The notes beneath the pieces were generated by a model. The model had not been told where the DNA came from. It searched no databases and saw only the letters and a program-made list of their open reading frames with translations. Position numbers and translations under genes: made by a program. Of a DNA stretch of 64,000 nucleotides, positions 11,833 to 60,395 are shown piece by piece; the stretch's first letter is position 1, and each line of letters opens with the position of its first letter. This DNA comes from Candidatus Eiseniibacteriota bacterium (GTDB lineage: Bacteria > Eisenbacteria > RBG-16-71-46 > DASYSL01): assembly GCA_031413115.1 (NCBI GenBank), contig JANOEH010000047.1, positions 703 through 64,702 on the forward strand, given 5' to 3'.

Positions 11833-14703
11833 TTATCGGAAGTCGCGCACCAGCACGACGTCGGTCGTGATCGTGCCGGCGCCGAAGGCGAGCGTCATCC
11901 CGCCGTCCACCCAGCGGATCTCGAAGATCTCCTGCCCCTCGAACTGCGTCAGCTGCCGTGCGCCCGACCCGTCGGCGTTCGCCATCCAGATGTTTTCCCC
12001 GGCCCCCACGCGCACGACGATCGCGAGCCGCGCTCCGTCGGGTGACCGCACGTAGTCCGTCAGGCGGCCAGATGCAAACCGGGTCACGGGTGCCGGCGTT
12101 CCGCCGCCAAAGGGCAGGCGCATCAGGTTGGCCGCCGGATCAGAGGTCGATAAGAAGTCGACCCCACGCTCGTCGGGGCTCAGCTGCGCGATCGTCGCGT
12201 CTCCCGGCAGCAGGATGCTGTCGCGCGCGGCGCTTCCATCGAGCGGTTGCAGGCGGAGCATGAAGCGCTGGAGCCCCCGCTCGTCCCGGGTCACACGGCT
12301 AACGAGAGCCTTTGTGCCGTCCTTCGTGTAGTCGGAGATGCCGGCCTCCGGGAGGACGAGTCCTTCCGTCATCGCCGGCATCGCGAGGAAGCGAAGGACA
12401 CGCAGCTCGGTGTAGCGCCCGAACCCGAGCCACCGCCCGTCCCGCGTCGCCCCGCGATGCTGCTCCCCGGAGCCCGTCGTCACCTGCGTCAGCTCGGTGC
12501 CGTCGGGCTTCACCGACCAGACGTGGATGCCATCGGCGCCCAGCCGATCGAAGATGACCCGCCCGCCGGCGGCGACCGGGTTGACCGCGAACGTGCGTCC
12601 GGACGTGAGCCTGCGCGGCTCGCCGCCCGCGACCGGGATCGACCACAGGGGGAGGCCCTCGTCGCGTGGTGCGTGGTACACCAGCGTCGCCGAGTCCGCG
12701 ACGGCCAGGCCCCCCGGCGAGTTCTCGGGGTTCGCGGCCCGCGTGAGTTGTCGCGGTGTACCTCCGGCGACGTCGACGGTCCACAGGTTCGAGAGTCGCG
12801 TCTGGCGGACGCTGGCGAGCGCCTCCTCGCCGCCGGCGGCGCCGATCGCGCGGTACGCCTGGAAGTCGTTCGTCACGCGCTGCACGGCCTTGCCGGGATA
12901 GCCGACGAGGAGCACCTGCGGCGTGCTCATGGTCATGTAGTCCTGGGCACAGATCGCGAATCCGCTGCCGTCGACGAGCCAGCTCAGGTCGAAGATCTGC
13001 GTCCGTGGCAGGCTCACGTGGTCGCGGCGCTTGCCCGTCACCGGATCGAACAGCGCGATCGTGGTCGTCAGGTCGCGCTCGGGCGAGAACAGCGCGGACG
13101 CGATCTGCTTGCCGTCGGGCGACCACGCGGGTGGGCTGGTGGGGAACTCGCCGAACTTCACCTCCGTGACGACCCGCTCCTTCGAGGCGTCGAGGTCGAA
13201 CTCGACCAGGCGGTTCCCGCCCTCCGCGCCCCTGCCGCGCCAGAACAACAGGCGCTTGCCGTCGGGGGCGAAGGTGGCGCGCGAGTCGACGTCGAACACG
13301 CGCTCCTGCGGCGTCCCGCCGAGCGAGGGCACCTGGTAGAGGGCCGAATAGCTCTGCACGTCGCGGCGTCGCTGGCGGAAGAACAGGTAGTTGCCGTCGG
13401 GCGAGAACGACGGCGTGTTGATCTGGTCGGGTGACGGTGGCACCACCTCGACGTCGCTGCCGGTGGCGACCTGCCGGACCCGCAGCGTGATCGCCCCCGC
13501 GGAGCCTGCGAGGTAGGCGAGGTAACGGCCGTCCGCGGAAAGCGCGCAGTCGCGCACGTCGCCCCGGCTCGTCACCGTGGTCATGCGCATGCTCGCGAAC
13601 GCCTCCGGCCGGGCGGTCTTGCCGCCGCGCGACAGCGCCCACCAGGCGCCGCCGGCCAGCGCGAGCACGACCAGCGCGCCGATGCCCAGGAGCACGGGCG
13701 ACGGTCCGCGCTGCTTCGCCGCGGCCAGTCCGACCGCCGAGGCGCCGGCCAGGCTGCCCGAGCTCGCCGAGGCGGACAGCGCGTCGTAGTCGTCGACGAT
13801 CTCGCGCAGCTCGAGCGCCAGGTCCTTCATCGACTGCAGGCGCTGCTCGGGGTTCTTCGCCAGGCAGCGGCGGATGAGGCGACGCAGTTCGGCCGGCACC
13901 TGCGGGTTGATCTCCTCGATCGGCGCCGGCTTCTCGTTGAGGATCCGGTGCATCGTCTCGATGCTGGTCTCGGCCGCGAAGGGGGCACGCCGCGTCGCGG
14001 CCTCGTACAGGATGCAGCCGAACGAGAAGATGTCCGCCCGGTGATCCACGGACTTGCCGGCCACCTGCTCGGGCGCCATGTAGCCGACGGTGCCGACGAT
14101 CACGCCGATGCCGGTCGCGTCCTGCGTCAGCGCCGGACCGCCCGTGGCGCTCGCGTCGGCCGCGCCCGCGCTCCTCTCGGTGAGCTTGGCGAGGCCGAAG
14201 TCGAGCACCTTGGCGAAGCCGTCGTTGGTGACCATGATGTTGCCCGGCTTGAGGTCGCGGTGAACGATCCCCACGCCGTGCGCCTTGGCCAGCCCGTCGG
14301 CGGCCTGGGCCAGCCAGCCGAGCAGCGTGCGCAGGTCGGTGCGATCCTCGTGGATCAGGTTCGACAGCGTCTTGCCGTTGACCAGTTCCATCGAGATGTA
14401 GTGCACGCTCGACGACGGCTCGAGGCCCGGCGAGCGCACCGCGTCTTCCCCGATCTCGTAGATGGTGACGATGTTCGGGTGGCTGAGCGACGAGGCCGAC
14501 TTCGCCTCGAGCCTGAAGCGGCGCACGCGATCCTCGCTGCGCACCAGGTCGGGCGGCAGGATCTTGAGCGCGACGTTCCGCTCCAGGGAGCGATCCTGCG
14601 CCAGGTACACCTCGCCCATGCCGCCGGCGCCGAGTGGGCCGACGATGCGGTAGTGCGAGAGTTCGTCCTCGGAGCGCAGTGTTCTTCCACCCTCGTGCGC
14701 CAT
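11833..14703 (-). CDS. Ser/Thr protein kinase with TM segment and C-terminal TolB-like/WD40-like beta-propeller repeats
   Basis: GAGGMGEVYLAQD, HRDLKPGNIM and DFGLAK kinase motifs. Hydrophobic helix (LLGIGALVVLALAGGAWWAL). Repeated SPDG../FAPDGKRL propeller blades. RBS aggagg before ATG 14703. Confidence 0.9.
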   Translation of the reverse strand: MAHEGGRTLRSEDELSHYRIVGPLGAGGMGEVYLAQDRSLERNVALKILPPDLVRSEDRVRRFRLEAKSASSLSHPNIVTIYEIGEDAVRSPGLEPSSSVHYISMELVNGKTLSNLIHEDRTDLRTLLGWLAQAADGLAKAHGVGIVHRDLKPGNIMVTNDGFAKVLDFGLAKLTERSAGAADASATGGPALTQDATGIGVIVGTVGYMAPEQVAGKSVDHRADIFSFGCILYEAATRRAPFAAETSIETMHRILNEKPAPIEEINPQVPAELRRLIRRCLAKNPEQRLQSMKDLALELREIVDDYDALSASASSGSLAGASAVGLAAAKQRGPSPVLLGIGALVVLALAGGAWWALSRGGKTARPEAFASMRMTTVTSRGDVRDCALSADGRYLAYLAGSAGAITLRVRQVATGSDVEVVPPSPDQINTPSFSPDGNYLFFRQRRRDVQSYSALYQVPSLGGTPQERVFDVDSRATFAPDGKRLLFWRGRGAEGGNRLVEFDLDASKERVVTEVKFGEFPTSPPAWSPDGKQIASALFSPERDLTTTIALFDPVTGKRRDHVSLPRTQIFDLSWLVDGSGFAICAQDYMTMSTPQVLLVGYPGKAVQRVTNDFQAYRAIGAAGGEEALASVRQTRLSNLWTVDVAGGTPRQLTRAANPENSPGGLAVADSATLVYHAPRDEGLPLWSIPVAGGEPRRLTSGRTFAVNPVAAGGRVIFDRLGADGIHVWSVKPDGTELTQVTTGSGEQHRGATRDGRWLGFGRYTELRVLRFLAMPAMTEGLVLPEAGISDYTKDGTKALVSRVTRDERGLQRFMLRLQPLDGSAARDSILLPGDATIAQLSPDERGVDFLSTSDPAANLMRLPFGGGTPAPVTRFASGRLTDYVRSPDGARLAIVVRVGAGENIWMANADGSGARQLTQFEGQEIFEIRWVDGGMTLAFGAGTITTDVVLVRDFR

Positions 14704-50808: not shown

Positions 50809-51678
50809 CTACTGGTGCAGGGTGCCGGCGTTGATCACCGGGCTCACCGAGTGATCGCCGCACAAGACGACGAGAAGGTTCGACACCATCGCGGCCTTCT
50901 TCTCCTCGTCGAGCTGGACGATGTTCTTCGACGACAGGCGCTCCAGGGCCATCTCAACCATGCCCACGGCGCCCTCGACGATCCGCGTGCGGGCCGCGAC
51001 GACCGCGCCGGCCTGCTGGCGGCGCAGCATGGCGCTGGCGATCTCGGGGCCGTACGCCAGGTGCGACAGGCGCGACTCGAGGATCTCGACGCCGGCCTTG
51101 TCGAGGCGCACCTGCAGCTCGGTGCGCAGCGCCTCGGAGATGTGGTCCATGTTGCCGCGCAGCGAGACGGTCTCGTCGTCGTGCGCGTCGTACGTGTACT
51201 GGCTCGCCAGGTGGCGGACGGCGGTCTCGCTCTGGACGGCGACGAACTGCTCGTAGGTGTCGACGTCGAACACGGCCTGCGCCGAGTCGCGCACGCGCCA
51301 GACGACCACGGCCGCGATCTCGACCGGGTTGCCGTCCTTGTCGTTGACCTTGAGCTTCTCGCCGTTGAGCGAGCGCACGCGCAGCGAGAGCTTCTTCTTG
51401 CTGGCGATCGGGTTGGTCCACCACCAGCCGTCGTCGTGCACCGAGCCCACGTACTTGCCGAGCAGGATGATGACCTCGGCCTGGTTCGGCTGGACGGTGA
51501 AGAAGCCGTTGAGCGAGACGCTGGCGACGGTGACGAGGAGTGCGACCGCCGCGATGCGGAATCCGATGGGTCCGGCAACCGGACTGGCGATCACGAACCA
51601 GGTCAGGGCGAGCATGGCGAGGACGATCAGGAGCCCGACCATTCCGGGCAGCGGGTGAGCCTTCGTTTCACGGGTCAT
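50809..51678 (-). CDS. SPFH/band-7 (stomatin/flotillin-like) membrane protein
   Basis: Two N-terminal TM helices. SPFH core [10 protein letters not shown]...[10 protein letters not shown]...[26 protein letters not shown] aaggagg before ATG 51678. Confidence 0.85.
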
Positions 51679-51700
51679 GAGATGCGGTTCCTCCTTTCGG

Positions 51701-51859
51701 TGATTCCATTGTAATATCATATTGGAATCATCGTCCAGAAAAATCGGTGACTTGAGAGAATAATTTCGGAAGAAAACCAGGTTGCCCGCCAGCCTCCGGC
51801 GGGCCGGCAACGGGCCCTGACAACAACTTGGCTTGTAATAGACCGGTCGTCTAGTAGAC
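51701..51859. promoter_or_regulatory. Divergent promoter/operator region with palindromes (candidate TetR operators)
   Basis: 30-bp imperfect palindrome TGATTCCAttgtaatatcatatTGGAATCA (51701-51730) in an AT-rich patch. GACCGGTC and GTCTAgTAGAC palindromes at 51841-51859. GCCCGCC-N7-GGCGGGC hairpin at 51784-51804. Confidence 0.5.
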
Positions 51860-51868
51860 TGCACCTCC

Positions 51869-52549
51869 ATGAACGAACCCGTCGACGCCCCACTCCACGT
51901 CACCCCCGCCACCCGCAAGGGCGAGGAGACCCGCGAGCGGATCCTGGCCGTGGCCCGCGATCTGATCCACCAGCACGGGTTCAAGCAGACCGGCCTGGCG
52001 GACATCCTGGCGGCGAGCCGGGTGCCCAAGGGCTCGTTCTACTTCTACTTCCGCAGCAAGGAAGAGCTCGCGACGGAGTTGCTCCGCCAGCACCGGGTCA
52101 CCTATCGCGAGGCGATGGAACGCGACGTCTTTCCACCGGGCGGCGAGACGATCCCGCAGCTCGTGGCGTTCTTCCGCGGCTCGGCGCAGCGGCAGGCGGA
52201 CGCCGGCTGCAAGTCGGGATGCCTGCTCGGCAATCTGGCTGCCGAGATCGGCGACCTCCACGAGGACCTGAGACGCGAGGTCGTCGCCAGCTTCCTCGAG
52301 ATGCGCCAGGCCTTGACCTGTGTCCTCGCGCGCGGGCAGGCCCGCGGCGAACTGAAGACCGACTTCGCGCCGGATCAGGCGGCGGAGTTCCTGATGTCGG
52401 TGATGGAGGGATCGATCCTTCTCGCCAAGGTGCGGCGCGAACCGGCGGCCTTTGCCGCAGTCGAGTTCTCGCTGGCCCGTTACCTGGAGACGTTGCGCAA
52501 CCCGGCGCCGCCGCATTCGGCCGGCCCCACGAACGGAGGGATCGCATGA
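51869..52549 (+). CDS. TetR/AcrR-family transcriptional regulator
   Basis: TRERILAVARDLIHQHGFKQTGLADILAASRVPKGSFYFYFRSKEEL TetR N-terminal HTH. Confidence 0.9.
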   Translation: MNEPVDAPLHVTPATRKGEETRERILAVARDLIHQHGFKQTGLADILAASRVPKGSFYFYFRSKEELATELLRQHRVTYREAMERDVFPPGGETIPQLVAFFRGSAQRQADAGCKSGCLLGNLAAEIGDLHEDLRREVVASFLEMRQALTCVLARGQARGELKTDFAPDQAAEFLMSVMEGSILLAKVRREPAAFAAVEFSLARYLETLRNPAPPHSAGPTNGGIA

Positions 52550-53262: not shown

Positions 53263-53341
53263 CCACCGGCGGATTCCGCACACACGACACCCTGAAGCCC
53301 CGGCGCGCCGCGCGCAACGGGGCTTCTGCTATGTTCCGGCA

Positions 53342-53995
53342 ATGCGCATTCCCGTCTATCTCGAAGTCGGCGCCCGGGGCGCGACCCGCGCCTGGGTACT
53401 GACGCTGCCCGGCGTGGCGGTCGATGCAGCTTCGCCGGAGGCGGCGCTCTTGGCCGTGCCTACGACCGTCGCTGCCGAGATTGCGCTCCTCGCACAGGGC
53501 GGACATCCGTGGGCTCACGCCCAAGAGCATCTCGAGTTTGTCGAGACCGAACGCGTCGACACCAATGTCGGACTCGAGGAAGGCTCGGCCCGCGCGCTCT
53601 TCAAGTGGGACCTGCGGCCGACCAAGCCGGAGGACGTCGCTGCTGCGCTCGCGCGCATCGAGATCGCCCGCCGCGCGATCGAGGCCGCCGTCGCCGGGAC
53701 GCCCGACGCGACGGTCGTCGAGTCCCCGGTCGGATCGCGCCTGATCGCGCTGTCGGGATCGATGCTGTGGCTCCTGTCGCGCCTCGGCTCCAAGCCGACG
53801 GGCACGCTGCCGCAGGAGCCGTTGCCGCGCTTCGTCGGCGCCGAGCAGATCGCGATCGACCGACTGAACAACCTGCTGCCCGGCGACCTCGAGCGGCACG
53901 CGGTGTTCCTCGGGGAACCATGGACGACCCGGAAGGTGCTGCGGCGGCTCGCCTGCCTGGTGCGTGCGGAGTCGCTCGCGACGGTTGCGCCATGA
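53342..53995 (+). CDS. Hypothetical protein
   Basis: Coherent ORF with non-biased composition. ATG 53342. ATGA-coupled to the downstream oxidoreductase. No recognisable motif. Confidence 0.5.
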   Translation: MRIPVYLEVGARGATRAWVLTLPGVAVDAASPEAALLAVPTTVAAEIALLAQGGHPWAHAQEHLEFVETERVDTNVGLEEGSARALFKWDLRPTKPEDVAAALARIEIARRAIEAAVAGTPDATVVESPVGSRLIALSGSMLWLLSRLGSKPTGTLPQEPLPRFVGAEQIAIDRLNNLLPGDLERHAVFLGEPWTTRKVLRRLACLVRAESLATVAP

Positions 53996-55242
53996 ACGTC
54001 GTGCATCCGGTGATCGTCGTGGGCGCCGGAGCGGCCGGGCTGATGGCTGCCATCGCCGCCGCGAAGCACGGTGCGCGCGTCATCCTGCTCGAGGGCACGA
54101 CTCACGTCGGAACGAAGATCCTCATGTCCGGCGGCACGCGCTGCAACGTCACCCACGACGTGATCACGCCCGCCGACTACCACGGCGGCTCGCGCAACGT
54201 CGTGGCGCGGCTATTGCGCGAGTTCTCGCACCTCGACACGCTGCGCTTCTTCGAGGACGAGCTGCACGTGCCGCTCAAGCGCGAGGACACGGGCAAGCTG
54301 TTCCCGGTCTCCGACGACGCACAGCAGGTGGTCGACGCGCTGGTGGCGCACTTGACCGAGCTGGGCGGCTCGATCTGGACGGGTCGCAAGGTCACCTCGA
54401 TCGAGCGCCTGGCCGACGGCACGTATCGCCTCGTCACCGACGTCGCGCCCATCCATGCGCACGCCGTGATCGTCACGACCGGCGGGCTGTCGTTCCCGCG
54501 CACCGGTTCCGACGGCACCGGCTACGGGCTCGTCCAATCGCTCGGCCACACGCTCACGCGCACCTCGCCCGCGCTCACGCCGCTCGTGGCGTACAGCGGT
54601 GGCATGCACGAGCGCCTGCGCGGCGTCACGCTGCCCGTGGCGTTGACGGTGCTCACGGGCGCGAACCGCAAGCGCTTCTGGCAGGGCGCAGGCTCGTTCC
54701 TGTTCACGCACTTCGGCTACAGCGGACCCGTCGCGCTGGATGCGAGCCGTCACTTTGCGCGCGAGTCGTGGGACGGACCGGTCGCCGTGATCGCCAACTT
54801 TCTCCCCGAGGTCACGAGCGAGGCGTTCGAACGCGAGCTCATGCTCGCCATCGAACACGAGCCGCGCCGCACGCTGCCTGCGCTCCTGCGCGGTCGCATT
54901 CCCGAAAGCCTCGTCGGCGAGTTGCTGGCGCTCGTCGAGATCGAGCCGGAGCGCCCGCTGTCGCGGATCTCGCGCGACGAACGCCGCGCGATCGTCGCGG
55001 CGGTGACCGCAAACGAGCTGCCCGTGCTCGAGGTGATGGGCTATCGCAAGGCCGAGGTCACCGCCGGCGGCGTGCCCGTCTCGGAAGTGGACCCCCGCAC
55101 GCTCGGATCCCGCCTCTCGCCGGGGCTCTATCTGGCGGGAGAGATCCTCGACGTCGACGGGCGATTGGGCGTTTACACCTTCCAGTGGGCCTGGTCGACG
55201 GGGTGGGTGGCGGGAAGGGGGGTGGCCCGAGGAGACGTTTGA
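53992..55242 (+). CDS. HI0933/BaiN-like FAD-dependent oxidoreductase (aminoacetone-oxidase-family flavoprotein)
   Basis: VIVVGAGAAGLMAAIAAAKHGARVILLEG Rossmann motif. ...GGTRCNVTH...YLAGEILDVDGRLGVYTFQWAWSTGWVAG C-terminus. Confidence 0.85.
   Translation: MNVVHPVIVVGAGAAGLMAAIAAAKHGARVILLEGTTHVGTKILMSGGTRCNVTHDVITPADYHGGSRNVVARLLREFSHLDTLRFFEDELHVPLKREDTGKLFPVSDDAQQVVDALVAHLTELGGSIWTGRKVTSIERLADGTYRLVTDVAPIHAHAVIVTTGGLSFPRTGSDGTGYGLVQSLGHTLTRTSPALTPLVAYSGGMHERLRGVTLPVALTVLTGANRKRFWQGAGSFLFTHFGYSGPVALDASRHFARESWDGPVAVIANFLPEVTSEAFERELMLAIEHEPRRTLPALLRGRIPESLVGELLALVEIEPERPLSRISRDERRAIVAAVTANELPVLEVMGYRKAEVTAGGVPVSEVDPRTLGSRLSPGLYLAGEILDVDGRLGVYTFQWAWSTGWVAGRGVARGDV
55175..55232. repeat. Copy A of a ~58-bp direct repeat (genuine 3' end of the oxidoreductase gene)
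   Basis: acaccttccagtgggcctggtcgacggggtgggtggcgggaagggggg... about 45/48 identical to 57815-57873. Confidence 0.8.
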
Positions 55243-55338
55243 GTGAGCGGGTCAAACGTATGGGCGGTTCTTCCACCAGCTGGTCTACGAAGCGCTGCGT
55301 CTCGAAGGTGCCGAGCTACACCAGGAATCGCGTCCACC

Positions 55339-57654
55339 TCACCCGTCGAGTCCCATCTTCTTCAGGAACGCGCCCCACCGCGGATCGCCGTGAAGAGAGC
55401 GGTAGACCGGCGCCGTCTTTATTTCGGCGAGACCACCATCGCGTTGAACGTAGGCTCTTTCAAGCCACTCAAACGCGGCGTCCGCTTCTCCGCGCGCTGC
55501 GTGCACCTCTGCAATCTGACAGGCAAAATCTCCCGCGTACTTGTCCTTCAGTTGACCAAGTGCCGCGTCGGACTCCACTCGGTGACCCAGGGCGTAGTGC
55601 ACGATTGCCAGTGCCCAGAGGCGAGCACTTTCAAGCGACTCCCGTAGTGCCTCGGCGACAGCCTCCTCGCTCTTCATCCGCGCGATCAGGGTCACTGAGA
55701 GGAGCGCGCGCGTCCAAACCCTCTGAGGAGCGAGCTCGAGAGACTTGCCGTACGCAGCCTCCGCCTCTGTGAAGCGATCTGCGGCGTGGAGAGCCAATCC
55801 GAGGTTGTGATAGTTCGCGACACTCAGCGGGTCCTGCTCGATTGCCCTGCGATGGAGCGTAATCGCATCCTCGAGACGGCCCAGGTTGGCGGCCAGGCCT
55901 CCCGCCGAGCGAAGCGCTATCGCATTGCCGGGTGACAGCTGCTGTGCGCGCGTGAACGATACTTCTGCACCCCGAAAATCCCAGTCGTAACTCATCTGGA
56001 CCATTCCCATTTGCGAGTGTCCCTCAGCGAGATCGGGCTCGAGTTGGAGGGCTCGGAGCGCTGCCTCTCTGGCATGGGCAACGCCTTCTGCCAAGGGCGC
56101 CCACCCCACATTTACTTCCTGTATGTAGGCCCGGCTCAGCTCCGCCCAGGCAAGCGCGAACTCCGGTTCGAGCTCCAGCGCGTGTTTCAGGTACTCGATT
56201 CCCTTCGCCAGGTCCTCGCGATCGAGCCGGTCGATGAGATACCGCGCCTGAAGGAAGAGCCGGTGCGCCTCGGGGTGGGTCCCGCGCCCCCTCGCCGCCT
56301 TGGCTACCTCCGCCTTGGCCCACCCGCTCGCCTCGGAATCGGCGGCTTCGCCGAGCAGCGTGGTGCGCAGCTCCTTCACCACCGAGTGCGCGATGTCGTC
56401 CTGCACCGCAAAGATATCCTCCAGGGTGCGGTCGTAAATCTCCGACCACAGCTGTGAGCTCGAGGCGACACTCACCAGCTGTACCGAAATGCGCACTCGG
56501 TTCCCGGCTTTGCGAACGCTGCCTTCGAGCACCGTCGCGACGTCGAGCGCCTTCCCCACTTCGGCGATCGTCGTGTCCTTGCCCTTGAAGTGGAACGATG
56601 ACGTTCGCGCCGTGACGCGTAGGCCCTTGATCTTGGCGAGGGTGTTGAGCAGCTCGTCGGCGAGGCCGTCGGAGAAGTACTCGTCGTCGGCGCTCGCGCT
56701 GCGGTTGACGAACGGCAGTACCGCGATCGAGGCGATCTTGTCCGACTTCTGGCGCGGCGCCGACTCGCCGCGCTCGAGCGTTCGCCGCACCGACCGCAGC
56801 TCGTTCAACACGTCCTGCGCAGTCTGGAAGCGCTCGCGCGGACTCTTCTCAAGGCAGCGCTCGACGATGTGCACCAGCTCACCTGGGAGGTCCGCGCGCA
56901 GGCTCCTGAGCGACGGCGGGCTGTCCCGGAGAATCGCCGAGCCGATGTCGACGCTGCTCTGCCCGGTGAACGGTCGCGTCCCCCCGGCCAGTTCGTAGAT
57001 CACGATTCCGAGCGAGAAGAGATCGGTGCGCGCGTCCACGAGTTCACCTCGGATCTGCTCGGGCGCCATGTAGGGCATCGTGCCCACGACCTGCCCGACC
57101 TCCGAGAGGGGTGCCGCCAGCGTCGCCGCTTGAGTGGCGTTCACGTCGGATCGGGTCTGCGCCAACTTGGCCAGCCCGAAGTCCAGCACCTTGACGCGTC
57201 CCTCGCGCGTCACCATCACGTTCGCCGGCTTCAGGTCGCGGTGCACCACTCCCTTCTCGTGCGCCGCCACCAGGGCGTCGGCCAGCGACATTCCGAGGTC
57301 GAGGATCTGGGCGAGCGGCAACCCGCCGGGAGTGACGAGGTCGGCGAGGCTCCGCCCTTCGACCAGCTCCATGGTGAGGAAGCGGATGCCGCCGTCTTCC
57401 TCGACGGAGTGGAGGACCACGATGTTCGGGTGGTTGAGGCCGGCCACGGTCGTCGCTTCGCGCTCGAGGCGCGCGAGGCGGTCGGGGGACGACGTCACGT
57501 CGGCGGGCAGGACCTTGATCGCGATGTCGCGCTTGAGGCGCGGGTCGCGGGCAAGGTAGACCTCTCCCATGCCCCCTGCGCCGAGGGGGGCGAGGATCTC
57601 GTAGGGGCCGAGGCGGGATCCGAGAGTCAGTGGCATCGAGGGAATGTACCCCAT
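55339..57654 (-). CDS. Ser/Thr protein kinase with TolB-N-like linker domain and C-terminal TPR repeats
   Basis: GAGGMGEVYLARD, HRDLKPANVMV and DFGLAK. Mid-region FVNRSASADDEYFSDGLADEL, typical of kinase/cyclase-TPR fusions. Multiple TPR repeats. Paralogous kinase domain to the one at 11833-14703. Confidence 0.9.
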   Translation of the reverse strand: MGYIPSMPLTLGSRLGPYEILAPLGAGGMGEVYLARDPRLKRDIAIKVLPADVTSSPDRLARLEREATTVAGLNHPNIVVLHSVEEDGGIRFLTMELVEGRSLADLVTPGGLPLAQILDLGMSLADALVAAHEKGVVHRDLKPANVMVTREGRVKVLDFGLAKLAQTRSDVNATQAATLAAPLSEVGQVVGTMPYMAPEQIRGELVDARTDLFSLGIVIYELAGGTRPFTGQSSVDIGSAILRDSPPSLRSLRADLPGELVHIVERCLEKSPRERFQTAQDVLNELRSVRRTLERGESAPRQKSDKIASIAVLPFVNRSASADDEYFSDGLADELLNTLAKIKGLRVTARTSSFHFKGKDTTIAEVGKALDVATVLEGSVRKAGNRVRISVQLVSVASSSQLWSEIYDRTLEDIFAVQDDIAHSVVKELRTTLLGEAADSEASGWAKAEVAKAARGRGTHPEAHRLFLQARYLIDRLDREDLAKGIEYLKHALELEPEFALAWAELSRAYIQEVNVGWAPLAEGVAHAREAALRALQLEPDLAEGHSQMGMVQMSYDWDFRGAEVSFTRAQQLSPGNAIALRSAGGLAANLGRLEDAITLHRRAIEQDPLSVANYHNLGLALHAADRFTEAEAAYGKSLELAPQRVWTRALLSVTLIARMKSEEAVAEALRESLESARLWALAIVHYALGHRVESDAALGQLKDKYAGDFACQIAEVHAARGEADAAFEWLERAYVQRDGGLAEIKTAPVYRSLHGDPRWGAFLKKMGLDG

Positions 57655-57810
57655 CGTGCGTCGCTGGTCCGGACTGTGTCAGTTTTGTGCTAGAACCATC
57701 CGCCAGCGAGGGAGACTACGCGTCACCATCGGACTCCACGTCCTCGGGCAACGTATTCTGTAGCGCGCTCTGTGGCGTCGATCGTGTCCAATGGTTCCTC
57801 CCCGATGCTC

Positions 57811-57873
57811 CTGTACAACTTCCAGTGGGCGTGGTCGACGGGGTGGGTTGCGGGACGGGGGGCCGCGACGTAG
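57811..57873 (+). pseudogene. Copy B of the direct repeat: a remnant 3'-end fragment of the FAD-oxidoreductase gene (encodes LYNFQWAWSTGWVAGRGAAT*)
   Basis: ctgtacaacttccagtgggcgtggtcgacggggtgggttgcgggacgggggg... in frame to a TAG stop. Near-identical to the true gene end at 55175-55242 but with no upstream coding context. Confidence 0.5.
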
Positions 57874-57995
57874 GCTTCCCCCCTCGGTGGTCGTCGTGCC
57901 CGGCTGCGGGCCGATCGGCCTCCCGGTCCGCCGGATGGTCTCGCCCTGTTCGCCCGGCTCACCCCGATCGTAGGAGAGCTACGGGAGGTTCGCGC

Positions 57996-60395
57996 ATGAT
58001 CTCGAGTCGGTTCATTCTTGGGATGGCTCTGGCGCTGGTGCTGGGGTCCTCGGACGCCGCAGTCGCCCAGGTCGTCGACACGAACTTCTGGGTGACGAAC
58101 GGCATCGTCGATGCCGTCGCTGAGTCCGAGGGAACGGTCTACATCGGCGGGCAGTTCACCCGGGTCGGACCTGCCACCGGCTCCTTCGTCGGGATCGACG
58201 AGACGACGGGCAGCGTGCTGGGGCCGGTGCCCATGGTGGCGGGGGTCGTCTCGGCGGTGGCCCCGGACGGGGGCGGGGGCTGGTACATAGGAGGGAACTT
58301 CTGGGCGGTGCAGGGTGAGCCGCGCCAGGGCCTGGCTCACCTCGACGCCGCAGGCGATCTGACCGCCTGGGACCCTCAGGTCCGCAACCTCCGGGCGCTT
58401 GCCGTCGACAACGGGACCGTCTACGTGGGTGGTTACTTCAACACGATCGCCGGCCAGCAGCGGCTTCGCCTGGCCGCGATCGACGGCACGACCGGAGCGT
58501 TGCTCGCCTGGAATCCCGGCGCAGACGGGACCGTCAATGAGCTGGTCGTGTCCGGGGGCACGGTCTACGCGGCTGGCGACTTCACGCATGTCGGGGGCGA
58601 GCCGCGATCGCGATTGGCCGCGATCGACGCCGCCACGGGATCCGTCACGGGTTGGAATCCGGATCCCGATCACGGGGTCACCGCCATGGTCCCGGGCGGG
58701 GGAGTGCTCTTCGTGAGCGGCAGCTTCTTCAACATTGGCGGCCAGCCGCGGAGCCATATCGCCGCGCTCGATCTGACGACCGGAATGGCGACGAGCTGGA
58801 ATCCATTCGCCAGTAGCGTTGTCAACGCGCTTGCGCTTCGGGGTGGAACGGTCTACGCGGGCGGGGTCTTCACCTCGATCGGCGGCCAGCCGCGACCTCG
58901 CGTCGCCGCACTCGATGCCGCGACGGGGGCCGCCACGAGTTGGATCCCGGACGGCCCGAACAGTCATGTCCAGGCCCTGGCGGTGACCGATCAGGCCGTT
59001 TACGTCGGTGGAGTCTTCAGTAGTGTCGGCGGTCAGCCGCGGAACTTCCTCGCGGCGCTCGATTCGGAAACGGGAGCCGTCACGGCCTTCGATCCGAACC
59101 CGAACGAACCCGTGAGCGTCCTCGCGGCGAACGAAACCGCCCTCTTCGCCGCCGGCGGTTTCACGAGTTTAGGCGGTGTGGCCCGCACCGGTCTCGCCGC
59201 TCTCGACGTCGCGACCGGCACGGCAACGAACTGGAACCCGACCGTGGGTGCGGCGTTCGCGCTCGCCGTCGCGGGAGGTACGGTGTACGCAGGTGGGGAC
59301 CCCGGGATTTCCGCGATCGAGTCGGCGCCGGGGGCGGCCAAGATCTGGAGCATCCCCGATGGCCAGGTGCTCGATCTGTGCGTGAATGCGGGCACGCTCT
59401 ACGCAGCCGGCATCTTCCAGACGATCGGTGGAGAGACGCGTAACGGCCTCGCGGCGCTCGACGCCAAGACCGGCTCGGTCACGAATTGGGCTCCGAATCC
59501 GGGCTTGGGGTCCTTCGGCACCCCGGTCGTCTACAGTCTCGCCGTCGACGCGAACGTGGTCTACGCAGGCGGCGAGTTCTCGAGCATCGGCGGCCAGCCG
59601 CGCAACGGCATTGCCGCGCTCGATGCCGTGACGGGATTGGCCACGGCCTGGAATCCGGGTCCGGCCTTCGGCGGAGTCTCCGCATTCGCGACACAGGAGG
59701 ACCGGGTCCTCGCCGCCGGAGACTTCTTCGAGATCGGCGGCCAGAAGCGGCATCATCTCGCCGCGCTGGATGCGACGACGGCTTTGCCCACGAGTTGGAA
59801 TCCCGACCTGTTCTGGAGCCCCACCAGCCTGGTGATCGATGAAGGCACGGTGTTCGTCGGCGGCTACATCGACAGCGTCGGGGGCGAGCCGTGCAGCCAC
59901 CTCGCCGCGATCGACGGCGCGAGCGGTGAGCCGCTGAACTGGTTCCCCGAGTTGATGGGTGGACTCCCGAATGTCCCGTCAAACGTCCAGGCGATCGCCG
60001 TGGACGCGAGCCGGGTCTACGTGGGGGGCGAGTTCCGGTCGGTTGGAGTCGCGCCCAACGCCGGCTTCGCCGCGATCTTCAAGCCGGCGACGGTCGGCGT
60101 CGGCGACCCCGCACTCGGGGGTCCCCTCCGGCTCATCGCGTCTCCCAATCCGTTCACCAGCGCCTCAGAGCTGCGCTTCACGCTCCAGCAGTCGTCCGAG
60201 GTGAGGCTGGGCATCTACGATGTGAGCGGGCGACTGGTGCGCGCGCTCGACCAGGGGCAGCTGGCTCCCGGGCCGCATCACTTCGCCTGGGACGGCCGGG
60301 ACCGGGGCGACACCGAGATCCGGCCGGGGATCTATTTCGTGAAGCTGACGGCGGGCACGAGGCGGGAGACGGCGAAGATCGTGAAGCTCCGGTAG
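57996..60395 (+). CDS. Large secreted repeat protein (about 14 degenerate ~45-aa beta-propeller-type repeats) with T9SS C-terminal sorting domain
   Basis: Signal peptide MISSRFILGMALALVLGSSDAAVAQ. Repeated GGxFxxIGGQPRxxLAALDAxTGxxTxWNP units. C-terminus ASPNPFTSASELRFTLQQSSEVRLGIYDVSGRLVRAL...GIYFVKLTAG...KIVKLR matches the Por-secretion-tail (T9SS C-terminal domain) pattern. RBS gggagg. Confidence 0.85.
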   Translation: MISSRFILGMALALVLGSSDAAVAQVVDTNFWVTNGIVDAVAESEGTVYIGGQFTRVGPATGSFVGIDETTGSVLGPVPMVAGVVSAVAPDGGGGWYIGGNFWAVQGEPRQGLAHLDAAGDLTAWDPQVRNLRALAVDNGTVYVGGYFNTIAGQQRLRLAAIDGTTGALLAWNPGADGTVNELVVSGGTVYAAGDFTHVGGEPRSRLAAIDAATGSVTGWNPDPDHGVTAMVPGGGVLFVSGSFFNIGGQPRSHIAALDLTTGMATSWNPFASSVVNALALRGGTVYAGGVFTSIGGQPRPRVAALDAATGAATSWIPDGPNSHVQALAVTDQAVYVGGVFSSVGGQPRNFLAALDSETGAVTAFDPNPNEPVSVLAANETALFAAGGFTSLGGVARTGLAALDVATGTATNWNPTVGAAFALAVAGGTVYAGGDPGISAIESAPGAAKIWSIPDGQVLDLCVNAGTLYAAGIFQTIGGETRNGLAALDAKTGSVTNWAPNPGLGSFGTPVVYSLAVDANVVYAGGEFSSIGGQPRNGIAALDAVTGLATAWNPGPAFGGVSAFATQEDRVLAAGDFFEIGGQKRHHLAALDATTALPTSWNPDLFWSPTSLVIDEGTVFVGGYIDSVGGEPCSHLAAIDGASGEPLNWFPELMGGLPNVPSNVQAIAVDASRVYVGGEFRSVGVAPNAGFAAIFKPATVGVGDPALGGPLRLIASPNPFTSASELRFTLQQSSEVRLGIYDVSGRLVRALDQGQLAPGPHHFAWDGRDRGDTEIRPGIYFVKLTAGTRRETAKIVKLR

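What the first reader, a model, noticed from the sequence alone, without database searches (positions are those of the whole stretch)
55175..57873. A ~58-bp direct repeat of the FAD-oxidoreductase 3' end brackets a TPR-Ser/Thr-kinase gene: an insertion or rearrangement scar
The last ~58 bp of the HI0933-like oxidoreductase gene (55175-55232; …YTFQWAWSTGWVAGRG) recur almost identically at 57815-57873, about 45/48 nt over the core. The second copy is still in frame to a stop (LYNFQWAWSTGWVAGRGAAT*) but has no upstream gene. Exactly the interval between the copies holds one oppositely oriented gene (55339-57654), a Ser/Thr kinase with TolB-N-like and TPR domains. It is a paralog of the kinase at 11833-14703. 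This geometry is what an insertion into the oxidoreductase gene's 3' end would leave, whether by att-like site-specific integration or illegitimate recombination with target duplication. No integrase or transposase accompanies it.
Basis: seen in the sequence. Interest (0 to 1): 0.6.

Follow-up and report, generated by a model that had tools for sequence, protein, structure and literature searches.

The report
Integrase-less island at a flavoprotein-gene attachment site
The repeat is real: it marks the two ends of a small mobile-element remnant carrying one kinase gene, inserted at the tail of a flavoprotein gene that a family of integrases targets across Candidatus Eisenbacteria. This is a known kind of event at a previously unreported site.

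Summary
Confirmed. Window 55174-55222 and 57814-57862 match at 45/49 nt, and no other copy exists in the 64 kb. They bracket only the TPR Ser/Thr kinase gene.

Across 16 distinct related loci (oxidoreductase at least 60% identical), 10 carry one to two extra "orphan" copies of the last ~50 nt of the HI0933-like oxidoreductase gene. All intact orphans start at the same codon pair (TAC AAC). The cargo between copies differs from locus to locus.

In insertion-bearing loci the in-gene copy is the more aberrant one. The orphan therefore looks like the displaced native gene end, and the in-gene end like a substitute brought by the element.

A tyrosine integrase with an excisionase-like gene sits directly against this gene end in all six genomic contexts examined. 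A seventh locus (L051) shows arm-core-arm contiguous with the integrase and no oxidoreductase body.

The 155 nt upstream of the window's second copy is the conserved P arm of that attachment site.

[quoted passage not shown] It may have arrived by integration followed by gene loss, or by homologous import; this is unresolved.

It is a new member of a known kind, of moderate interest.

The parts
53992..55242 (+). Target gene: HI0933-like (YhiN family) FAD oxidoreductase, 416 aa. Its start overlaps the stop of the upstream gene (ATGA).
   Evidence: Pfam HI0933_like E 1.6e-73 over residues 6-409. The sequence is 98% identical to the protein of a Candidatus Eisenbacteria MAG.
55174..55222 (+). Repeat copy 1, the attL core. 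It sits inside the gene and encodes YT FQWAWSTGWVAG RG. It is the element-borne substitute for the native gene end.
   Evidence: Its nhmmer score against the family consensus (46.3) is lower than that of copy 2 (50.2). Its GVYT replaces GG[YF]N, which is found in 99 of 100 homologues.
55223..55338 (+). Left end of the insert: substitute tail codons VARGDV and the stop (to 55242), an inverted repeat at 55236-55259, and a spacer. It lacks the arm motif that lies next to the integrase in complete elements.
   Evidence: Sequence. The motif search finds one copy in the window, at 57675 only. There is no similarity to the P' arms of L012, L020 or L051.
55339..57654 (-). Cargo: Ser/Thr protein kinase with C-terminal TPR repeats, 771 aa as the longest ORF. 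The real start is probably the ATG at 57636.
   Evidence: Pfam Pkinase E 6e-47 plus TPR families. Homologous kinases follow a repeat copy in L001 (56% aa identity) and L018 (48%). L018 begins MPLSPGTRLGTYEIV.
57658..57813 (+). P arm of the attachment site, a conserved non-coding module of about 155 nt. It contains the arm-type motif TGTGTCAGTTTTGTGCTAG at 57675-57693. On the minus strand it holds a frameshifted relic of the integrase's C-terminal tail and its conserved stop.
   Evidence: nhmmer E 1.9e-38. The same module lies directly upstream of orphan copies in L003, L009/L011 and L040, and in L051 it is contiguous with the core and the integrase. Rfam gives no hit and no stable fold is predicted (z +1.9).
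57814..57873 (+). Repeat copy 2, the attR core (57814-57862), plus the native tail AAT and stop. This is the displaced original 3' end of the oxidoreductase gene.
   Evidence: It has the canonical YN FQWAWSTGWVAG and starts at the same TAC AAC as the orphans in other loci.
57996..60395 (+). Probable original downstream neighbour: a secreted repeat protein with DUF5122 propeller repeats, an FlgD_ig domain and a Por_Secre_tail.
   Evidence: Pfam. In L004 a homologue (39% over residues 22-797) directly follows an uninterrupted oxidoreductase gene.

Best explanation
The region 55174-57873 is an integrated mobile-element remnant of 2.64 kb. It consists of attL, one cargo gene and attR, and it occupies the attachment site of a family of tyrosine-integrase elements. 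These elements target the last ~50 nt of the HI0933-like oxidoreductase gene in Candidatus Eisenbacteria and relatives.

Inferred mechanism: the integrase exchanges strands at the left edge of the core (TACAAC TTCCA). The gene body becomes joined to an element-borne replacement for the last 16-25 codons (copy 1, attL), so the gene stays open. The native last codons and stop are pushed downstream (copy 2, attR). They lie directly behind the element's ~155-nt P arm.

Complete elements carry integrase and excisionase-like genes next to attL, together with replication or transfer genes. The window's element has none of these, nor the integrase-proximal arm. It is therefore a decayed, non-autonomous derivative, similar to a CIME.

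Shown here: the repeat, its fixed boundary, the conserved arm, and the link between the integrase and this target. Inferred: the position of strand exchange, and the route by which the window acquired its cassette.
For: 1. Recurrence. Of 16 distinct loci with an oxidoreductase at least 60% identical and enough downstream sequence, 10 carry one or two orphan copies. These are the window, L001, L002, L015/L040, L018 (decayed), L023/L035, L036, L045, L046 and L047. Three more (L012, L033, L050) have the integrase directly adjacent.

2. Site specificity. All intact orphans begin at TAC AAC, or a one-base variant, and are unrelated upstream of it.

3. Diverse cargo. It includes a kinase, an Xre/RES toxin-antitoxin pair, a wHTH regulator, TetR with DUF418, an ADH, a copper P-type ATPase island and an AT-rich DUF4145/GGDEF block.

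4. Substitute end. The in-gene copy scores below the orphan: L001 30.7 vs 53.1, L023 36.7 vs 49.8, L036 41.5 vs 55.2, window 46.3 vs 50.2. The wHTH cassette family carries its own FQ(L/F)AWSTGWIAG end in L036, L046 and L047. The window's GVYT is unique among 100 homologues.

5. Integrase. A Phage_integrase protein (E 1e-16) and an HTH_17 protein converge on the gene end in L012, L020 and L033. Homologues 65-89% identical do the same in L048, L049 and L050, next to primase or relaxase-type genes.

6. Attachment site. L051 has P arm, core, P' arm and integrase contiguous, with no oxidoreductase body, and the arm motif is present on both arms. The window's 57658-57812 is that P arm.

7. L004 shows the oxidoreductase directly followed by a homologue of the window's downstream gene.
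Against: No integrase of this lineage is present in the 64-kb window. The attL side lacks the P'-arm motif, so the cassette may never have moved in its present form.

No empty site from the same strain is available.

The window and its 94%-identical relative L002 are at least 97% identical across the gene. Identity drops to about 85% from 55100 onward, which is 75 nt upstream of the core. That pattern points to a homologous crossover inside the gene in at least one of the two lineages.

The far ends (attR) of the complete elements were not captured.

L051 cannot distinguish a free attP from an internal junction in a tandem array.

Nothing here is experimental.
Confidence: 0.8

Rival explanations
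1. The structure is the same, but the route differs. The window's lineage received an already integrase-less cassette from a related strain by homologous recombination. One crossover fell inside the oxidoreductase gene and the other in the 49-nt core or beyond it. No integrase acted in this lineage.
For: Identity to L002 falls from at least 97% to about 85% starting 75 nt upstream of the core. Integrase-less cassettes carry only the P arm. L036 and L025 are 99% identical downstream of the core but only 90% identical in the gene body.
Against: This route does not explain how the duplicated core and P arm arose in the first place; it only moves an existing element. A 49-nt right-hand homology arm is short for RecA-mediated exchange. 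It also cannot be told whether the window or L002 is the recombinant.
Confidence: 0.3
2. The repeat is a target-site duplication, or the result of illegitimate recombination, from a transposon-type insertion. One example would be a Tn7-like element, some of which are known to use yhiN as an attachment site.
For: The literature lists yhiN among Tn7-like attachment sites. The arm motif begins with TGTG, as many transposon ends do.
Against: The insert has no transposase genes. Tn7-type insertion produces 5-bp duplications downstream of the gene (established knowledge), not a 49-nt copy of coding sequence. In several loci the two copies differ far too much to be duplicates of one target (L001, L023). 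A tyrosine integrase accounts for the site.
Confidence: 0.03
3. An integron-like cassette array in which the repeat acts as an attC-type site.
For: The arrays consist of small, promoter-poor cassettes of one or two genes, including toxin-antitoxin pairs, separated by a repeated ~50-nt site and lacking their own recombinase.
Against: No IntI-type integrase lies next to the array. The upstream genes are TetR, an ECF sigma factor and a protein with no Pfam match. The repeat is coding sequence, is not palindromic, and does not fold better than shuffled sequence (z +1.9). A classical integrase/excisionase element with long arms uses the site.
Confidence: 0.03
4. Copy 2 is the last relic of a second, degraded oxidoreductase paralogue, or the C-terminus of some other gene.
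For: It keeps the reading frame and the family motif, and ends in a stop.
Against: No further oxidoreductase similarity exists upstream, and an in-frame stop lies 40 codons upstream. The boundary falls at the same codon in more than ten loci. In five loci the boundary is preceded by the same non-coding arm in differing frames.
Confidence: 0.02

Closest known systems
[quoted passage not shown] 2004 and Bellanger et al. 2011, as summarised in PMC5704250)
   Same: A tyrosine-integrase element targets the 3' end of a protein-coding gene and restores that end. Derivatives without an integrase remain flanked by att sites. Tandem arrays build up at the one site.
   Different: The target gene (HI0933-like/YhiN family), the phylum (uncultured Candidatus Eisenbacteria) and the integrase lineage (about 28% identical to phage D3-type integrases) all differ. 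The window's cassette has lost the integrase-proximal arm, so cis-mobilisation is doubtful. None of this has been tested experimentally.
Genomic islands integrated in tandem at the ssrA (tmRNA) gene of Dehalococcoides (PMC3146451, listed)
   Same: Repeated copies of a gene's 3' end separate successive islands with different cargo.
   Different: That target is an RNA gene, and the description rests on my own knowledge plus the abstract only. Here the repeat is protein-coding and the substitute end changes the protein's sequence.
Tn7-like transposons that use yhiN as their attachment site (papers listed)
   Same: The same gene family serves as a landing pad, presumably because its 3' end is highly conserved.
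   Different: The mechanism is entirely different: a TnsD-directed DDE transposase with a 5-bp duplication downstream of the gene. No such genes or structures are present here.
Chromosomal integron cassette arrays
   Same: Arrays of small, variable cassettes separated by a recurring recombination site, with toxin-antitoxin cargo.
   Different: No IntI, no attI and no hairpin-forming attC. The repeat is a fragment of the target gene.

Membership tests
Tyrosine-integrase integrative element inserted in the 3' end of a gene | The insert is flanked by direct repeats of the target gene's 3' end (attL and attR) | tested here: met
   45/49 nt at 55174-55222 and 57814-57862, with 0.00 matches expected by chance.
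Tyrosine-integrase integrative element inserted in the 3' end of a gene | The junction falls at the same position in independent insertions | tested here: met
   Orphans in L001, L002, L003, L009, L023, L030, L031, L036, L040, L045, L046 and L047 all start at TAC AAC or a one-base variant.
Tyrosine-integrase integrative element inserted in the 3' end of a gene | The element encodes a tyrosine recombinase next to an att site | tested here: not met
   Not met in the window: the insert holds only the kinase, and tblastn with the integrase finds nothing in the 64 kb. It is met in related loci L012, L020, L033, L048, L049, L050 and L051.
Tyrosine-integrase integrative element inserted in the 3' end of a gene | Conserved arm region with repeated binding-type motifs beside the core | tested here: met
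   The 155-nt module at 57658-57812 is shared with L003, L011, L040 and L051 (E 1e-20 to 1e-42). The motif TGTGYCNG-N3-TGTGCYNG occurs on both arms in L051.
Tyrosine-integrase integrative element inserted in the 3' end of a gene | Both unoccupied and occupied sites exist | tested here: inconclusive
   L004 has the gene followed directly by a homologue of the window's downstream gene, but its oxidoreductase is only 66% identical. No empty site from the same strain was found.
Tyrosine-integrase integrative element inserted in the 3' end of a gene | Excision to a circular form, or recombination activity | not testable with these tools
   L051 shows P-core-P' contiguity, but this could equally be an internal junction in an array.
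CIME (cis-mobilizable element; definition in PMC5704250) | [quoted passage not shown] | tested here: met
   The only cargo gene is a Pkinase/TPR protein.
CIME (cis-mobilizable element; definition in PMC5704250) | Retains functional attL and attR | tested here: inconclusive
   attR has both the core and a full P arm. attL has the core but not the P'-arm motif.
Integron cassette array | IntI integrase with an adjacent attI, and hairpin-forming attC sites | tested here: not met
   The upstream genes are TetR, an ECF sigma factor and a hypothetical protein. The repeat region folds no better than shuffles.
Tn7-like element at yhiN | TnsA/B/C plus a TnsD/TniQ target selector, and a 5-bp duplication downstream of the gene | tested here: not met
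   The insert contains no such genes, and the duplicated segment is 49 nt of coding sequence.

The most novel reading that the evidence does not exclude
The integrase-less cassettes may be more than debris. They could be an actively exchanged pool that co-resident integrase elements mobilise in trans or in cis, making the oxidoreductase gene end a functional analogue of an integron platform in this phylum. A second point: the integrase ORF runs antisense through the core and normally ends at a conserved stop inside the P arm. Integration therefore swaps its last ~30-45 residues, which could act as a built-in switch between the integrated and excised states.
Probability: 0.15. Interest if true: 0.6.

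Novelty: new member of a known kind. Interest (0 to 1): 0.38.

Why it matters
It identifies a gene-end integration hotspot and its integrase lineage in an uncultured phylum. The literature searches made here found nothing on integrases in this phylum. The site explains why contigs break and gene content varies just downstream of this conserved gene. It also gives a ready marker, the 49-nt core plus the 155-nt arm, for finding accessory and defence cargo in metagenomes. One such cargo is the DarTG/PLD/MZB block in L051. For the window itself, it shows that the kinase gene is horizontally acquired cargo. It also shows that the host flavoprotein now carries a foreign C-terminus that alters two otherwise invariant residues.

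Tried and rejected
- Exact-protein look-ups for the window's oxidoreductase and kinase found nothing. Two earlier look-ups failed because my start coordinate was off by two bases.
- No tRNA or tmRNA lies near the site in the window, L001 or L002. A tRNA-like stretch after L002 copy 3 was not called.
- The core pattern has no match in viral contigs.
- Rfam gave no hit for 55000-58100.
- The module is not a stable structure (z +1.9). A conserved GAACCAT/ATGGTTC inverted repeat with one compensatory change was not pursued.
- No protein in the insert regions of L003, L030, L035, L040 or L046 matched an integrase family.
- I tested whether the module is a nucleotide-level remnant of the integrase catalytic C-terminus. 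Only the 19-nt motif aligns.
- I dropped the idea that the window's motif is a P'/P hybrid left by a motif-to-motif deletion, because the flank similarity was too weak.
- The far att sites of the complete elements in L048-L050 were not found within 10 kb.
- L025 was first read as the empty site for L036. It more likely carries the integrase element itself, since its tail is of the integrase-element type.
Full report
**1. The observation**

The window has a 49-nt direct repeat at 55174-55222 and 57814-57862, with 45 identical positions. A 29-nt core pattern, allowing three mismatches, finds only these two sites in the 64 kb, against 0.00 expected by chance.

Copy 1 is the end of a full-length HI0933-like FAD oxidoreductase gene at 53992-55242 (Pfam E 1.6e-73). 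Copy 2 is in the same frame and ends in a stop at 57873. An in-frame stop lies 40 codons upstream of it, and there is no oxidoreductase similarity before it. Three of the four differences between the copies are synonymous.

The interval holds one gene, 55339-57654 on the minus strand, with Pkinase and TPR domains. Its GC content is 62-67% against about 70% outside. It shares only the kinase domain with the kinase at 11833-14703 (42% over 285 aa).

**2. Origin of the window**

The window is 94% identical over 5.2 kb to a Candidatus Eisenbacteria MAG contig (L002), and 86-88% identical to another (L001).

**3. The same pattern recurs in related genomes**

Both relatives also carry extra copies of the gene end, but around different genes.
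- L002 has a 95-aa wHTH gene, then TetR plus DUF418, each followed by an orphan copy.
- L001 has an Xre/MbcA-type antitoxin plus a RES toxin, then an orphan, then a kinase homologue.

A metagenome scan with the core pattern, and contexts of oxidoreductase homologues, added many more loci. I searched all of them with a six-frame fuzzy match and an nhmmer profile.

Among 16 distinct loci whose oxidoreductase is at least 60% identical to the window's and that have enough downstream sequence:
- 10 have one or two orphans: the window, L001, L002, L015/L040, L018 (decayed), L023/L035, L036, L045, L046 and L047.
- 3 have an integrase directly adjacent: L012, L033 and L050.
- 3 have neither: L004, L034 and L043.

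Several further contigs hold orphans with no oxidoreductase body in range. One of them, L003, has an orphan behind more than 11 kb of a copper P-type ATPase island.

Other cargo includes an ADH, CAP/BNR proteins, an abhydrolase with an AAA_16-GerE regulator, and an AT-rich block with DUF4145 and GGDEF genes.

**4. The boundary is fixed**

Every intact orphan starts at TAC AAC, the YN of GGYN-FQWAWSTGWVAG, or at a one-base variant of it. Upstream of that point the orphans are unrelated to the gene. This is the signature of site-specific recombination, not of illegitimate joining.

**5. Which copy is native**

In insertion-bearing loci the in-gene copy fits the family profile worse than the orphan:

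| Locus | In-gene copy (bits) | Orphan (bits) |
|---|---|---|
| L001 | 30.7 | 53.1 |
| L023 | 36.7 | 49.8 |
| L036 | 41.5 | 55.2 |
| window | 46.3 | 50.2 |

A wHTH cassette family is recognisable by the palindrome GAGGTCATATGACCTC. It sits first in the array in L002, L036, L046 and L047. In three of these it comes with its own distinctive gene end, FQ(L/F)AWSTGWIAG.

The window's in-gene end reads GVYT where 99 of 100 homologues have GG[YF]N.

The orphan is therefore the displaced native end, and the in-gene end is a substitute supplied by the element. The repeat is not a target-site duplication.

**6. The recombinase**

About 110 nt downstream of intact genes in L012 and L020, a motif from the window's copy-2 flank reappears. 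It lies inside the 3' end of a minus-strand ORF containing GHKTESVYRRYAIVSEADL. That ORF matches Phage_integrase (E 1.1e-16) and phrog_1. Its upstream neighbour is an HTH_17 excisionase-like protein.

L033 has a 65%-identical pair in the same position. L023 has an integrase fragment beyond its orphan.

I looked up four homologues from the protein database. Three converge on, and mostly overlap, an HI0933-like gene end:
- L048, on a 3.6-Mb contig, with a Prim-Pol/AAA_25 gene.
- L049, with a D5_N primase.
- L050, with TrwB-like and Replic_Relax genes.

So six of six genomic contexts of this integrase lineage abut this gene. The closest phage integrases (phage D3 type) are about 28% identical.

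**7. The attachment site**

The fourth homologue, L051, has the excisionase-like gene and the integrase. These are followed by the antisense core, a 135-nt match to the module found upstream of the window's copy 2 (E 2.4e-20), and then DarT/Macro/DarT, PLDc_2 and MZB genes. There is no oxidoreductase body. This is a contiguous P arm-core-P' arm arrangement. It is either a free attP or an internal array junction, which has the same structure.

The motif TGTGTCNGTTTTGTGCNNG lies on both arms in the same orientation. It consists of two TGTGYCNG units 11 nt apart.

The window's 57658-57812 matches this P arm. So do the sequences directly upstream of orphans in L003, L009/L011 and L040 (E 1e-38 to 1e-42). 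L002 copy 3, L031 and L045 share its core-proximal part. The frames differ between loci, so the conservation is at the DNA level.

On the minus strand the integrase ORF of L051 runs through the core and ends at a stop codon that is conserved in all the modules. The window keeps this stop, with a frameshift before it.

**8. Interpretation of the window**

- Copy 1 is attL, and copy 2 with its arm is attR.
- The kinase is cargo.
- The DUF5122 repeat-protein gene at 57996 is the probable original neighbour. In L004 a homologue directly follows an uninterrupted oxidoreductase gene.
- No integrase of this lineage is in the window, and the attL side lacks the P' motif. The element is thus a decayed, non-autonomous derivative.
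- Related kinase cassettes exist in L001 and L018. In L018 the module and core have decayed while the native tail is still recognisable. That insertion is therefore older and separate, whereas the window's orphan is pristine.

**9. Route of acquisition**

This remains open. The window and L002 are at least 97% identical through the gene. Identity drops to about 85% from 55100, which is 75 nt before the core. L036 and L025 are 99% identical downstream of the core but only 90% identical in the gene.

Homologous exchange with a crossover inside the gene therefore also moves these arrays between strains. It may be how the window obtained an already integrase-less cassette.

**10. Comparison with known systems**

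The closest described case is the ICESt1/ICESt3 family with its CIMEs at the 3' end of fda, and the deletion-plus-accretion model (PMC5704250). Tandem islands at ssrA in Dehalococcoides are similar.

yhiN is known as a Tn7-like attachment site, but nothing here fits that mechanism. Integron features are also absent.

Searches found no paper that pairs Eisenbacteria with an integrase, and none of the top-listed results concerned HI0933 as an integrase target. I therefore rate this a new member of a known kind.

**11. Limits**

All evidence is comparative sequence analysis of metagenome contigs. The position of strand exchange, any activity of the integrase, and mobility of the integrase-less cassettes are all inferred.

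Noticed in passing
window 55165-55179: The substitute gene end changes GGYN to GVYT. Among the 100 oxidoreductase homologues with a recognisable motif, 99 have GG[YF]N and only this protein differs. The host enzyme may be impaired by the insertion.
   Followed up: partly
L012 2337-3698 (-); L051 1320-2642; window 57694-57813 (-): The integrase ORF reads antisense through the att core. In the P-core-P' arrangement it ends at a stop conserved inside the P arm (...EGTDEDR*). In the integrated state it instead runs on into the antisense strand of the oxidoreductase gene. Its last ~30-45 residues therefore depend on integration state.
   Followed up: partly
L051 2775-8919: The cargo next to the att site is a defence-type block: DarT, a Macro-domain (DarG-like) protein, a second DarT, PLDc_2 and an MZB-domain protein.
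   Followed up: no
L002 11279-11748; L036 204-757; L046 11239-12239; L047 6206-7190: A small wHTH cassette family (0.6-1.05 kb) has the perfect palindrome GAGGTCATATGACCTC upstream of the regulator gene. It is always first in the array. In L046 and L047 it also carries a 170-183 aa protein with no Pfam match.
   Followed up: partly
window 53327-53995: A 222-aa protein with no Pfam match is coupled to the oxidoreductase by an ATGA overlap. It is conserved upstream of the gene (42-99% identity) in 10 of the related loci, and in most of them it lies immediately upstream. Its function is unknown.
   Followed up: no
window 57634-57654: The kinase's longest ORF probably overcalls the start. L018's homologue begins MPLSPGTRLG, which corresponds to the ATG at 57636. 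The sequence before it resembles the leader of an unrelated cargo gene in L040.
   Followed up: no
L043, L044, L046, L047 (between the ECF sigma gene and the 222-aa gene); window 51650-51875: The region upstream of the oxidoreductase is also variable between lineages, with different genes inserted after the TetR/ECF-sigma pair: LiaF/His_kinase/LytTR, PpoB2/DUF899/PQQ, a kinase, or DinB/AHSA1/HTH. Window-L002 identity dips to about 70% at 51650-51875.
   Followed up: no
window 55236-55259: An inverted repeat, ACGTTTGA-N8-TCAAACGT, overlaps the oxidoreductase stop codon at the start of the insert. It has no T-run.
   Followed up: no
L028 7901-8005: This is a different kind of orphan. A fragment of 35 or more codons from the distant GGFN...AAVSA* type of oxidoreductase gene has no gene body in the 7.9 kb upstream. 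It appears to be a truncation, not an att-bounded copy.
   Followed up: no
L004 316-1267; L046 14073-14889: IS630/DDE_3 transposase fragments lie a few kb downstream of the oxidoreductase in two loci. This shows further mobile-element traffic in the same neighbourhood.
   Followed up: no
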